Of a stretch of 64,000 nucleotides of DNA, positions 1-3,000 are shown one piece after another. The DNA comes from Escherichia coli (lineage in GTDB: Bacteria > Pseudomonadota > Gammaproteobacteria > Enterobacterales > Enterobacteriaceae): assembly GCF_048403405.1 (NCBI RefSeq), contig NZ_CP183129.1; one strand, given 5' to 3'. Every line of letters starts with the position of its first letter. The stretch's first letter is position 1. Position numbers: made by a program.

Positions 1-3000
1 CCCCAGTATCCACCACGGTCCCTGTGCGCTGTTGGTCGCCAGGTAAAGATGCGGGCTTAACCGGATATCCGGCGGCAGCGACGCCCACAGCCGTGCCAGC
101 GTGTGGCCGTCCGGCTGCGCTGCCTTACCACCGCGAACCAGCCACATTGACTCGCTGCGGCTGTACACCGCCCCCCCCGGCAGCAGCGGCTCAAAGTGAA
201 TGCTCCGTCCGCCGTTGTCGTTGAGTACCAGTGCATCATCGCGTATCTGTAAGCGGATATCAGAAGGCGCTTTCCAGCCGGGGCCAAAAATCCCCACCGG
301 CGCAGGCGTCTTCGTCCGGTAGCTGCTGTAGGTGCGGGAGAGAATGAACGACAGCGGGCCGGGCAGCGCAAGGTCCGTCTCGCCGGGCAGCACCTTCGCC
401 CCCAGCAGCGGATTTACCGGGTTGCCCGAAGTCATCCTGCCCGGACACACCGAGCACGCCACGCCGGTGGGCGCGCCAATTCTTACACCTGCCGAACCCT
501 GGACAATGGGACCGCCATACTGAGTCATATCTCCCTGACGCGCCGCTGGTTTTCCGCTCATATAAAGTGCCCTTTTAGTTATTGTTCATATCCCTGTGTT
601 AGCAACAAAAAAATAAAATGACACACAAGACCAGCTAATGTATTTATATATTTTTCACATAAACTTAATTGTTCTCAATCAACAACAACTGTTATTACAG
701 GTCACTTTCAATATTTTATTAAACTAACATTTTTAGCACAGATGAATTCATCATCAACAAATTCACTATATGGATAATATCCATTCAACGCATATGGTTT
801 ATGATTTTATTAGTCTGAGTTATTTTTGTAGGGCTATATTTAAAATTATTAAACTCCACCGATTCAGATTAATATCAGCAATAGAAAGATAGGAAATCAC
901 CAATTCAATAACATCATCAATGAAACATATTGTAGAATTAATTTAAACAAGGCGTTCCATTCAACCAGAACGCCCCTTATTTACTCTCATCACCCCGCAA
1001 ACTGCCTGAACAGCGCCTTACCCTTAACCAGCCGCGCGCCCAGCCAGCCGCCGAAAAGCGACAGCAGCAGTGCACCGCTGCACGGCAGCACAATCCACAA
1101 TCGCCAGTCTGGCTCCCACGGGAAATCAAACACTTTCGCCTGCAACACTGCCAGCGCCGTTTCCGCACCAATTGCGGCCACCAGGCCAGAAACAAACCCG
1201 AGCATGGCGAACTCACACCACAACGTGGTACGCAGCAGTTTTTTCCCCGCACCGAGTGTGCGCCACACCACCAGCTCCTGATGACGCTGACGCATTCCCA
1301 CCTGCACCTGTGCCAGCAACAGCAACATACCGCAGGCGGTGACCAGCACCACCATCACCTCCAGCGCCCGACTTACCTGCTCCAGCACCTGACCGACCTG
1401 TTTTAAAATCGCGCCAATGTCTAACAGGCTAATGGTAGGGAACTGGCGGTTGAGTTGCGTCAACATGCCGTTGCCATTCTCCCAGCGGAAACTGGTAAGC
1501 CAGCTCTGCGGTTGCCCGTCTAATGCCCCTTCTGGGAAAATAAAATAGAAATTAGGCCGCAGACTTTCCCAGTCCACTTTGCGCAGGCTGGTCACTTTAG
1601 CGCGGAACTCCTGGGTATCGCCCATAAAGGTGACTGTATCGCCGAGGCCAACGTTTAAGCGTTTCGCCAGCCCCTCTTCCATTGACACTTCATCGGCTTT
1701 TGGCGGCCAGTTACCGGCGACAATCGGATTATGATCGGGCCGCGTATTTTGCCAGGTAAGATTGAGTTCGCGGTTAAGCGCCTCATCTTCATTGCCTTCT
1801 GTCGGCTTGTCGTTAATCGCCGTCAGTCGCGCCCGCACCACCGGATAAAATGATTCCGGGACTATCTGATGTTCCGCGAGGAACGTTTTTAGCGGCGTAA
1901 CCTGTTCTGTGGCGATGTTGATTAAAAAGTAGTTCGGGCTTTCTGGCGGTAGCTGCTGTTGCCAGCGGTCGAGCAGATCGCCACGCAGCACCAGCAGCAG
2001 TGCCAACAGCATAAAGGAGAGCGAAAATGCCGAAAGCTGGCTTAACGTTGACCACGGCTGACGTAACAGGCGGCTAACCGCCAGGCGCAGAGGTAGCGAT
2101 TTCAGCGTCATGCGGCGAAGTACATTCAGCAGCATCCAGCCCAGCACACCGCACAGCAAAGCCAGTACTACCGCGCCCGCCAGCACCGCCCAGAGCAGCA
2201 TACTGCCCCCCATTAATCCGGCGAGCAGCAGCACAACCACCACACTGACAATCGGCAGATAAAACTTGAGCGGCCAGACGTTCGCGACCACATCATTACG
2301 TAATACGCGTAAAGGCTGCGTTGCCAGCAACAAGCGGTACGGTCGTAGCCCCACCAGCAGCGAGATGACCGTCATGGTGCCCAGCGCCCATAGCCACGGC
2401 CAGAGGCTGGCAGGCGGTAGTGCAGCAGGCAAAACGGGCTTGAGCAGCACCATCAACACGTTTTCGAACAACAGGCCTATCGCCCCGCCGGTAACGGCTG
2501 AAAGCGTCAGCACCATCAACCACTGACCGACGATTAGCTTACGCAGTTGCGCTCGCCCTGCCCCCAGCGTTTTGAGGATCGCCACAAGATCGTAGCGACT
2601 GCGACAGTAATGATTCATCGCCACCGCCACCGCTGCCACTGCCAGCAGCAAGGTCAGAAGCGCCGAAAGCAGCAGGAACTGTTGCGAGCGTTCCATCGAG
2701 CGCCCCAGCGCGCCTTCGTCCTGTTCCAGACCGTACCAGCGTTGTTCGGGTTTAAGCTGAGGTAACAACCATTTCTCATAGCTGTCGAGCTGGTTCTCGT
2801 TGCCGCCGAATTTATAGCGCCAGGTGACCCGACTCCCCGGCTGCACGGCTCCGGTTTTATCGACATCCGCCAGATTCATCATCAGACGCGGAGCCATCTG
2901 GAAGGGGTTAAAACCGGAATCCGGTTCCTGAATCACTTCTCCGGCAATCCGCAAGGTGGCATCGCCCACGTCAATGGTGTCGCCCGTTTTTAGGTTAAGC

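What the first reader, a model, noticed from the sequence alone, without database searches (positions are those of the whole stretch)
1..989. Rhs element begins at the window edge, preceded by a ~390 bp AT-rich upstream region
Only the conserved Rhs N-terminus is visible; the variable C-terminal toxin and immunity gene lie outside the window. Rhs loci are polymorphic toxin systems, so the region immediately beyond the window start is likely to be strain-variable. The long AT-rich leader (562-950) is atypical for the surrounding core DNA.
Basis: partly seen in the sequence, partly recalled or inferred. Interest (0 to 1): 0.3.

Follow-up and report, generated by a model that had tools for sequence, protein, structure and literature searches.

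The report
Start of E. coli RhsD element

Summary
Confirmed and already known. On the minus strand an ORF starts at ATG 561 and runs off the window at base 1. Its 187 residues match positions 1-187 of NCBI's "RHS element core protein" model (E 2e-119) and Pfam DUF6531. The 428-bp spacer to ybbP (562-989) has 28.5% GC, the lowest of any 428-bp stretch in the 64-kb window. This is the rhsD locus of E. coli (mnmH/ybbP site). Genomes without the element lose homology at about base 983, so the AT-rich leader belongs to the acquired island, not to core DNA. It is single-copy and present in 2906 of 5426 complete genomes. In K-12 the same spacer (98.6% identical) is a published H-NS-bound "promoter island", and its proposed sigma-70 promoter occurs exactly at 722..694 (-). 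A near-identical genome (GN02461) shows the rest: a 1400-aa Rhs with 13 RHS repeats, the Rhs core, a tip that is only an orphan in K-12, and an 86-aa YbbD-type ORF that I infer is the immunity gene. That genome also has a T6SS. The site is strain-variable: about two Rhs tip states, an Hcp-toxin island, a dinQ-like insert, or REP-only. Low interest.

The parts
1..561 (-). 5' end (codons 1-187) of the Rhs main gene at the rhsD locus; the gene continues beyond base 1
   Evidence: Translation. NF041261 RHS_core positions 1-187, E 2e-119. DUF6531. 100% identical to GN02461 'RHS element core protein' WP_000014925.1. 64.5% GC.
421..561 (-). Codons 1-47: short PAAR-like N-terminal segment (one PAAR repeat, aa 2-29) ending at the predicted N-terminal self-cleavage site N47|P48
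   Evidence: Pfam PAAR_motif scores only 16.6 bits, below the 27-bit cutoff. Aa 2-29 align to the last PAAR repeat of solved PAAR proteins 4jiv_D, 9rce_c and 8gra_J. P48 aligns with residue 1 of the Tse5 shell chain 8cp6_B, which begins at the K47|P48 cleavage site. Cleavage in this protein is inferred.
193..426 (-). Codons 46-123: DUF6531, the N-terminal plug of the Rhs cocoon
   Evidence: Pfam PF20148, E 1.5e-18. Homology to the Tse5 shell, E 1.9e-18. The plug role of DUF6531 comes from the Tse5 structure paper PMC10684867.
562..982 (.). AT-rich leader: island-borne, single-copy, non-coding DNA upstream of the Rhs gene; orthologue of the K-12 ybbP/rhsD H-NS-bound 'promoter island'
   Evidence: 28.5% GC, the window minimum. 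Homology with rhsD-less genomes starts only at ~983. Present in 2906/5426 genomes, at most 2 places per genome. 98.6% identical to K-12. K-12 literature. No Rfam hit. No minus-strand ORF of 30 aa or more.
694..722 (-). Candidate sigma-70 promoter TTAATA-17-TGTAAT, about 133 bp upstream of the ATG
   Evidence: Exact single match in the window to the promoter proposed for K-12 rhsD from RpoD genomic SELEX (PMC3946193). Not shown to be active.
650..678 (-). Second promoter-like site, TTGAGA-17-AAAAAT
   Evidence: Consensus scan. It is the only hit, and shuffles give 2.6 on average, so it is weak evidence.
570..574 (-). Shine-Dalgarno-like AAGGG, 8 nt before the ATG
   Evidence: Read directly from the sequence.
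949..976 (-). Intrinsic-terminator-like hairpin just downstream of the ybbP stop codon; it lies inside the island DNA
   Evidence: 11-pair stem with a T-rich tail. MFE -16.1 kcal/mol. Identical in K-12.
983..989 (.). Island/core junction, no more than 7 bp beyond the ybbP stop codon (990-992)
   Evidence: The empty-site genome L003 aligns with the reference locus only from the position equal to window 983. ybbP-only matches begin at 980-987 in nearly all listed rows.
990..3404 (-). ybbP (context: the core gene flanking the island)
   Evidence: 804-aa ORF; annotation.

Best explanation
Window 1-982 is the ybbP-proximal end of the RhsD element of E. coli, a roughly 6-kb acquired island that replaces the spacer between the convergent core genes mnmH (ybbB) and ybbP.

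Shown:
- The island starts within 7 bp of the ybbP stop codon.
- It carries its own terminator-like hairpin, then about 390 bp of 26% GC non-coding leader, then a GC-rich Rhs gene whose first 187 codons are visible.

Inferred from homology and literature:
- The leader is the promoter region. It is held silent by H-NS under laboratory conditions, as reported for the 98.6%-identical K-12 spacer.
- Transcription starts from a weak sigma-70 promoter at about 722..694.
- The protein has a one-repeat PAAR-like N-terminus (aa 1-47) that docks on a VgrG spike of the strain's type VI secretion system.
- It self-cleaves at N47|P48, and again after the C-terminal PxxxxDPxGL core.
- It forms a YD-repeat cocoon plugged by DUF6531 that encloses the C-terminal toxin.
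- The toxin is delivered into neighbouring bacteria. Sister cells are protected by the small ORF that overlaps the end of the Rhs gene, which I read as the immunity gene.

The toxin tip and that ORF lie outside the window. In the closest genome the tip is the serum-amyloid-A-like tip that is only an orphan (ylbH) in K-12, and the ORF is an 86-aa YbbD-type protein with a hydrophobic N-terminal stretch.
For: - Identity of the gene.
- Locus identity and census: 2850 genomes carry the contiguous Rhs-start/leader/ybbP arrangement. It is 'locus 3' (ybbA...ybbB) of Jackson et al. 2009.
- Island boundaries: the empty site L003 aligns up to 7 bp past the mnmH stop and from 7 bp before the ybbP stop.
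- Leader: single-copy and specific to this locus. Rhs paralogues match only 1-561 (H17-H20).
- K-12 literature: the spacer is bound by H-NS in all ChIP data sets compared, is listed among 78 promoter islands, and is flagged as horizontally acquired (PMC3661553). An RpoD holoenzyme SELEX site with H-NS and promoter TTAATA-17-TGTAAT was reported (PMC3946193), and that promoter is conserved exactly here.
- Full gene in the near-identical genome: 13 RHS repeats, RHS core, the DPIGL/DPLGL motif region, a divergent tip and an overlapping 86-aa ORF.
- T6SS link: GN02461 has tssB-K, hcp and vgrG, plus a vgrG-adjacent Rhs that is 72% identical over the first 190 aa, including the PAAR-like segment.
- Homology to the T6SS effector Tse5, with the cleavage-site proline aligned.
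Against: - Only 187 codons are in the window. Intactness of the rest is assumed from a genome that is near-identical but not the same assembly (indels exist elsewhere). In some strains this gene is frameshifted (L008, L009).
- The PAAR match is below Pfam's cutoff and covers only one of the three canonical repeats.
- No vgrG or Eag chaperone gene is linked to this locus.
- The simple promoter scan shows no excess of promoter-like sites (1 found against 2.6 expected).
- H-NS binding, promoter activity, secretion, cleavage and toxicity were not tested here. None of them has, to my knowledge, been shown for this particular allele.
Confidence: 0.85

Rival explanations
1. The locus is a cryptic relic. 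The Rhs gene is permanently silent or defective in this strain, and the AT-rich leader is simply unameliorated foreign DNA with no regulatory role.
For: The K-12 orthologous spacer is described as a transcriptionally suppressed, H-NS-covered promoter island. K-12 has no T6SS (my own knowledge). Frameshifted alleles exist at this locus. There is no enrichment of promoter-like sites.
Against: The visible 187 codons are intact and the nearest genome has an intact 1400-aa ORF. That genome has a complete-looking T6SS cluster with a related PAAR-like Rhs. The leader is as conserved as core regulatory spacers (98.6-99.1%).
Confidence: 0.25
2. The main function is independent of T6SS. Internal promoters near the core/tip junction express the toxin tip and immunity gene as a toxin-antitoxin-like module, as reported for Salmonella Typhimurium Rhs. 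The upstream leader would then matter little.
For: In Salmonella the rhs-CT and rhsI are transcribed from internal start sites 89 nt upstream of the PxxxxDPxGL coding sequence, at up to 100-fold higher levels than the delivery part. The full-length gene is H-NS-silenced (PMC7043789).
Against: The relevant region lies outside the window and was not examined. No such start sites are documented for E. coli rhsD in the papers I read. This reading does not conflict with T6SS delivery.
Confidence: 0.15
3. The AT-rich spacer is core intergenic DNA (a ybbP 3' region) that happens to be AT-rich, and the Rhs element begins at the ATG.
For: Rhs paralogues share homology only up to base 561. The spacer contains the ybbP terminator hairpin.
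Against: Genomes lacking rhsD have unrelated DNA (REP/BIME, an Hcp-toxin island, or a dinQ-like insert) from ~983 onward. The leader is found in 2906 genomes and 2850 genomes carry the contiguous Rhs-start/leader/ybbP arrangement, so leader and Rhs gene essentially always occur together.
Confidence: 0.02
4. The leader encodes an unrecognised small RNA or micro-protein, for example the 40-aa plus-strand ORF at 770-892.
For: High conservation of the leader. One 40-aa ORF is present.
Against: No Rfam family matches at E up to 1. The conservation equals that of other intergenic regions. With about 1% variation nothing can be learned about coding or structural constraint. Short ORFs in 27% GC DNA are expected by chance.
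Confidence: 0.05

Closest known systems
RhsD element of E. coli K-12 (rhsD-ybbC-ylbH-ybbD, between ybbP and mnmH/ybbB); 'locus 3' of Jackson et al. 2009
   Same: Same chromosomal site and the same junctions. The leader is 98.6% identical, including the terminator hairpin and the proposed promoter. The first 187 codons are 96.3% identical in DNA. The core architecture is the same.
   Different: In the nearest genome to this window, the K-12 main tip (DUF4329) and its immunity gene ybbC (Imm-NTF2-2) are absent. The Rhs core is fused directly to the tip that is an orphan (ylbH) in K-12. K-12 lacks a T6SS (my own knowledge); the reference genome here has one.
RhsD (z0651) of EHEC O157:H7 EDL933
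   Same: An Rhs gene at the rhsD locus, not linked to a vgrG island, described with a PAAR domain and a serum-amyloid-A-like C-terminal motif (PMC7216683). That matches the weak PF00277 hit of the GN02461 tip. O157 leaders are 98.8-99.1% identical.
   Different: I did not align z0651 itself. The function of the SAA-like tip is unknown in both.
Tse5 (PA2684) of Pseudomonas aeruginosa, an H1-T6SS Rhs effector (PDB 8cp6)
   Same: Short (47-aa) PAAR-like N-terminal fragment, a cleavage-site proline at the same position (P48), a DUF6531 plug, a YD-repeat cocoon and a C-terminal aspartyl autoprotease.
   Different: Distant homologue (E 1.9e-18 over 120 aa). The residue before the proline is N47 here, not K47. 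The toxin tip is unrelated. Cleavage and secretion are not shown for the E. coli protein.
Salmonella Typhimurium SPI-6 Rhs main/orphan locus
   Same: An Rhs with orphan tips downstream. H-NS silencing is reported for SPI-6, where that Rhs locus lies, and is inferred for this locus from K-12 data. That orphan tips can become main tips by recombination in the shared core sequence is my own knowledge.
   Different: The Salmonella gene sits inside the T6SS island next to vgrG and eag genes. This one is an isolated island beside ybbP.
H-NS-bound 'promoter islands' of E. coli K-12 (Panyukov and Ozoline 2013)
   Same: The orthologous K-12 spacer (522099_304, ybbP/rhsD) is one of the 78 listed islands. 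It is AT-rich, associated with foreign genes and bound by H-NS in all compared studies.
   Different: With the simple hexamer scan available here, the density of promoter-like sites is not above shuffled expectation. The published definition uses another algorithm (PlatProm).

Membership tests
Rhs / YD-repeat polymorphic toxin (NCBIfam NF041261 'RHS element core protein') | N-terminal region homologous to the family profile | tested here: met
   Residues 1-187 align to profile positions 1-187, 400 bits, E 2e-119. The 2000-bit cutoff applies to whole proteins and cannot be reached by a fragment.
Rhs / YD-repeat polymorphic toxin | Multiple YD/RHS repeats forming the cocoon | tested here: met
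   Not inside the window. In the near-identical genome GN02461 the same ORF has 13 PF05593 RHS_repeat stretches, E 2.9e-79. Presence in the window's own genome is inferred.
Rhs / YD-repeat polymorphic toxin | RHS-associated core (PxxxxDPxGL, aspartyl autoprotease) followed by a variable toxin tip and a small downstream immunity gene | tested here: met
   In GN02461: PF03527 and TIGR03696 hits. Identity to K-12 RhsD falls from about 85% to below 10% after roughly residue 1250. An overlapping 86-aa YbbD-type ORF follows; its immunity role is inferred from position, not tested. All of this lies outside the window.
PAAR domain (Pfam PF05488) | Score above Pfam's gathering threshold | tested here: not met
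   16.6 bits against a 27-bit cutoff, matching only profile positions 52-69.
PAAR domain (Pfam PF05488) | Three PAAR repeats forming the cone that caps VgrG | tested here: not met
   Only aa 2-29 align, and only to the last repeat of the solved PAAR proteins 4jiv_D, 9rce_c and 8gra_J. The whole pre-cleavage segment is 47 aa. It is best called 'PAAR-like', as for Tse5-NT.
T6SS-delivered effector | A T6SS with VgrG present in the same genome | tested here: met
   The GN02461 chromosome has tssB, C, E, F, G, J, K, tagH, hcp and vgrG, plus a vgrG-adjacent Rhs with a 72%-identical N-terminus. This is inferred for the window's genome; the window itself holds no T6SS gene.
T6SS-delivered effector | Genetic linkage to a vgrG, hcp or Eag chaperone gene | tested here: not met
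   The neighbours are ybbP on one side and ylbG/mnmH on the other. It is an effector gene with no linked vgrG.
T6SS-delivered effector | T6SS-dependent secretion and killing, with protection by the downstream immunity gene | not testable with these tools
   Requires experiments.
H-NS-silenced 'promoter island' / xenogeneic silencing target | AT-rich, horizontally acquired DNA | tested here: met
   28.5% GC, the window minimum. Absent from genomes without the island.
H-NS-silenced 'promoter island' / xenogeneic silencing target | H-NS occupancy and hns-dependent repression | not testable with these tools
   Reported for the K-12 orthologue, which is 98.6% identical.
H-NS-silenced 'promoter island' / xenogeneic silencing target | Abnormally high density of promoter-like sites | tested here: inconclusive
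   The simple hexamer scan found 1 site against 2.6 +/- 1.5 in shuffles. The published criterion uses PlatProm, which is not available here.

The most novel reading that the evidence does not exclude
The convergent mnmH/ybbP spacer may be a dedicated exchange site for T6SS effector cassettes that have no linked vgrG. Alternative cassettes (a PAAR-like Rhs in about 53% of genomes, an Hcp-toxin fusion with DUF2931 genes in about 11%) occupy exactly the same junctions. Each brings its own unrelated AT-rich leader and its own terminator hairpin beside ybbP. The leader could then be a selected H-NS-dependent switch that couples the isolated effector gene to T6SS de-repression, rather than mere foreign DNA. 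The alternation of cassettes is observed here. The regulatory coupling is speculation.
Probability: 0.25. Interest if true: 0.35.

Novelty: already known. Interest (0 to 1): 0.1.

Why it matters
It matters little beyond correct annotation. The RhsD element, its position, its GC-rich core with AT-rich accessory DNA, tip displacement, and H-NS binding to the ybbP/rhsD spacer are all in the literature. The useful outcomes are practical:

- The left edge of this window cuts a strain-variable toxin island, so anything inferred about the tip must come from the genome itself.
- The AT-rich leader should be annotated as island DNA and as a probable H-NS-silenced promoter region.
- The locus is a compact marker of inter-strain competition repertoire, with four or more states in E. 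coli.

Tried and rejected
1. Unusual conservation of the leader. It differs from other lineages by only 0.9-1.4%, while four-fold degenerate sites differ by 8-10% in ybbP and by 7-14% in the Rhs start. That looked like strong constraint. The control removed it: 16 ordinary core intergenic regions of the same window are 98.2-100% identical to K-12. The leader therefore behaves like any E. coli regulatory spacer.

2. Leader outside E. coli. An exact 29-mer scan of 100,044 species-representative genomes gave 0 hits. This is uninformative, because the E. coli representative may lack the island.

3. Known RNA in the leader. Rfam at E up to 1 gave nothing.

4. Shared origin of the Rhs leader and the Hcp-toxin island leader. 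Only chance 7-12-mers are shared.

5. H-NS high-affinity motif TCGATAAATT. One site with 2 mismatches, which is not informative.

6. Promoter density. It is not above shuffles with the simple scan.

7. Canonical PAAR membership. Rejected: below cutoff and only a single repeat.

8. The toxin tip. I did not pursue its biochemical activity (weak PF00277 SAA hit at 17.7 bits, below cutoff), because it lies outside the window.
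Full report
OBSERVATION

On the minus strand an ATG at 561-559 opens a reading frame that is still open at base 1 (187 codons). Nine codons upstream there is an in-frame TGA, with no other start codon between them. An AAGGG lies 8 nt before the ATG.

The product is MSGKPAARQGDMTQYGGPIVQGSAGVRIGAPTGVACSVCPGRMTSGNPVNPLLGAK... It aligns end to end with positions 1-187 of NCBIfam NF041261 "RHS element core protein" (400 bits, E 2e-119). It also contains Pfam DUF6531 at residues 46-123 (E 1.5e-18).

The coding part has 64.5% GC. The spacer 562-989 has 28.5% GC (26.5% for 562-950), against a window mean of 55.3%. It is the lowest 428-bp stretch of the whole 64 kb. ybbP (990-3404) and ybbA (3401-4087) follow on the same strand.

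The observation and its coordinates are therefore confirmed. The Rhs identification rests on specific homology, not on chance.

WHAT THE LOCUS IS

A megablast of 1-1100 against 5426 complete E. coli genomes found 2850 genomes with the contiguous arrangement; the listed rows are annotated rhsD or "RHS element core protein" next to ybbP. Other Rhs paralogues match only bases 1-561, so family homology stops exactly at the start codon. Genomes without rhsD match from about 980-987 onward in nearly all listed rows (ybbP only).

Strain GN02461 (NZ_CP095533.1) is 100% identical over 1-1100. It has 3 mismatches over the first 15.1 kb and is 99.98% identical over a further ~50 kb. It is the best available proxy for what lies beyond base 1.

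There the ORF continues to 1400 aa. It has 13 RHS repeats, the RHS core domain (PF03527, TIGR03696) and a C-terminal tip. An overlapping 86-aa ORF follows, with a hydrophobic N-terminal stretch; newer annotation calls it "YbbD family". I read it as the immunity gene, from its position only. After it come a 57-aa ORF, the ylbG pseudogene and mnmH.

This is "locus 3" (ybbA...ybbB) of the Rhs survey by Jackson et al. 2009 (PMC2935791), that is, the classical RhsD element.

WHERE THE ELEMENT STARTS

In an empty-site genome (L003), mnmH and ybbP are convergent and separated by 240 bp of REP/BIME sequence. Alignment with the reference locus stops about 7 bp after the mnmH stop codon and resumes at the position equal to window 983, 7 bp before the ybbP stop codon.

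The whole AT-rich leader is therefore part of the ~6.1-kb island. That includes the hairpin at 976..949 (11-pair stem, T-rich tail, -16.1 kcal/mol), which sits where a ybbAP terminator is expected.

The leader is single-copy (at most 2 places per genome) and occurs in 2906 of 5426 genomes at 95-100% identity. It is not shared with other Rhs elements.

WHAT IS KNOWN ABOUT THE LEADER

The K-12 leader is 98.6% identical (4 substitutions and a 2-nt length change in a T-run).

In K-12 the ybbP/rhsD spacer is one of 78 "promoter islands". It is associated with predicted foreign genes and bound by H-NS in all ChIP data sets compared. As a class these islands are described as transcriptionally suppressed (PMC3661553).

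Genomic SELEX with RpoD holoenzyme also recovered this spacer. It was marked as an H-NS site and assigned the promoter TTAATA-17-TGTAAT for rhsD (PMC3946193). That exact 29-mer occurs once in the window, at 722..694 on the Rhs strand (0.01 expected by chance), about 133 bp upstream of the ATG.

My simple hexamer scan found one further site (678..650) and no excess over shuffles. Rfam found nothing. There is no ORF of 30 aa or more on the Rhs strand within the leader.

THE VISIBLE PART OF THE PROTEIN

Residues 2-29 align with the last of the three PAAR repeats of solved PAAR proteins (4jiv_D, 9rce_c, 8gra_J). The Pfam PAAR score is below threshold (16.6 against 27 bits). The segment is PAAR-like, not a canonical PAAR domain.

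Residues 48-169 are homologous to the start of the shell chain of the Pseudomonas T6SS effector Tse5 (8cp6_B, E 1.9e-18). That chain begins at P48 because Tse5 self-cleaves between K47 and P48. Tse5's 47-residue N-terminal fragment is a PAAR-like domain needed for secretion, and DUF6531 is the N-terminal plug of the cocoon (PMC10684867). Here the aligned residues are N47|P48 (PVNPLLGAK against PVNPMLGSK).

Cleavage, plug and docking are inferred for this protein, not shown.

DELIVERY SYSTEM

The window has no T6SS gene. The proxy genome has a T6SS cluster (tssB, C, E, F, G, J, K, tagH, hcp, vgrG), followed by another Rhs whose first 190 residues are 72% identical to the window protein, including the PAAR-like segment.

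An in-silico study of EHEC likewise treats rhsD as an Rhs gene outside any vgrG island and presumes it can be carried by any VgrG. It notes a serum-amyloid-A-like motif in its tip (PMC7216683). That matches the weak PF00277 hit of the GN02461 tip.

STRAIN VARIABILITY BEYOND THE WINDOW EDGE

K-12 has rhsD with a DUF4329 tip, then ybbC (Imm-NTF2-2), then an orphan core fragment with a second tip (ylbH), then ybbD. In GN02461 and FDAARGOS_946 the main Rhs core is joined directly to that second tip. The DUF4329/ybbC module is absent. H19 and MEI7BO1-21 have the same layout but are frameshifted.

The K-12 main-tip module is in 1895 genomes and the leader is in 2906. So about 1000 genomes carry the island in another tip state.

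The same site holds other contents elsewhere:
- A 2-kb gene annotated tssD, which I read as an Hcp fused to a C-terminal toxin extension, followed by DUF2931 genes, with its own unrelated AT-rich leader and hairpin. It is in 572 genomes.
- A short insert annotated as a dinQ-like type I toxin.
- REP sequences only, in at least 465 genomes.

A LEAD THAT DID NOT HOLD

The leader differs from other lineages by only 0.9-1.4%. Four-fold degenerate sites differ by 8-10% in ybbP and by 7-14% in the Rhs start. This suggested unusual constraint.

Sixteen ordinary core intergenic regions of the same window are 98.2-100% identical to K-12. The leader is therefore no more conserved than normal E. coli regulatory spacers.

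MECHANISM, WITH STATUS OF EACH STEP

Shown here:
- Island borders, composition, the hairpin, the exact promoter match, the intact first 187 codons and the family assignment.
- In the proxy genome: the full Rhs architecture, and a T6SS with a related Rhs.

Taken from the literature for orthologues or homologues:
- H-NS binding and RNA polymerase binding at the spacer.
- The role of the PAAR-like N-terminus in secretion, the N- and C-terminal self-cleavages, and the cocoon with its DUF6531 plug.

Inferred:
- This allele is H-NS-silenced and is transcribed from about 694-722 when de-repressed.
- It is loaded on a VgrG and delivers its tip into neighbouring cells, and the 86-aa ORF protects sister cells.

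Rivals: a cryptic relic (0.25), T6SS-independent TA-like use via internal promoters as in Salmonella (0.15), a hidden small RNA or peptide (0.05), and the leader as core DNA (refuted). These are separate likelihoods, not shares of one total; the relic and internal-promoter readings partly overlap with the main account.

VERDICT

The feature is real and correctly interpreted. It is a textbook example: the 5' end of the RhsD element with its island-borne, H-NS-targeted leader. Novelty is "already known" and interest is low (0.1). The modestly new points are descriptive: the exact junctions, the census of locus states, and the collapsed-tip allele in this lineage.

Noticed in passing
window 15771-36548 (-), with 13605-15767 (-), 12433-13608 (-) and about 36656-38011 (-): An intact 6925-aa ORF (annotated 'BapA-related adhesin SiiEA' in GN02461, where it is marked frameshifted). 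It has long internal repeats 72-74% identical to each other. It is flanked by a type I secretion permease/ATPase, a HlyD adaptor and a TolC-family gene. K-12 has only a small remnant between ybaT and cueR. This gene probably explains the window's high overall GC (55.3%).
   Followed up: partly
window about 9400-12030 (low-GC minimum at 9728-10566, 30% GC): A small island between ybbJ and cueR that is absent from K-12, where ybbJ abuts cueR. It encodes a YadA-family autotransporter adhesin and three hypothetical proteins, with a 366-bp AT-rich spacer.
   Followed up: no
window 43344-43771: The ybaP-copA spacer (428 bp, 56% GC) matches K-12 over only 71 bp. K-12 has ybaQ (a HigA-family antitoxin) here, and no gene is annotated here in GN02461.
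   Followed up: no
L004 2516-6009 and L005 1075-5920 (same chromosomal site as window 1-989): In 572 of 5426 genomes the mnmH/ybbP site holds a ~2-kb gene annotated tssD (apparently an Hcp with a C-terminal toxin extension), followed by 2-4 DUF2931 genes. It has its own AT-rich leader and a hairpin beside ybbP. So two different kinds of T6SS effector genes, neither linked to a vgrG, alternate at identical junctions.
   Followed up: partly
L013 1619-2329: A further state of the same site: a ~710-bp spacer with an ORF annotated as 'damage-inducible type I toxin DinQ' between mnmH and ybbP.
   Followed up: no
L001 10359-11150 against L002 7163-7849: The main Rhs tip of the window's nearest relative is the tip that is only an orphan (ylbH) in K-12. 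This is consistent with a deletion by recombination between the main core and the orphan core fragment, which removed the DUF4329 tip and ybbC. About 1000 genomes lack the K-12 main tip but keep the leader.
   Followed up: partly
window 37814-38514: The third-lowest GC stretch of the window (32%). It overlaps the end of the TolC-family gene and the 337-bp spacer to ybaT, has no K-12 counterpart, and may be the promoter region and border of the adhesin/T1SS island.
   Followed up: no
window 1-561 against Rhs paralogues: The Rhs start is as similar, or more similar, to paralogous Rhs genes at other loci in other strains (96-97%, H17-H20) as to orthologous rhsD alleles (94.8-96.8%). Its ratio of non-synonymous to synonymous codon changes is much higher than in ybbP (9:12 against 5:54 versus K-12). 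This suggests gene conversion among Rhs cores.
   Followed up: partly
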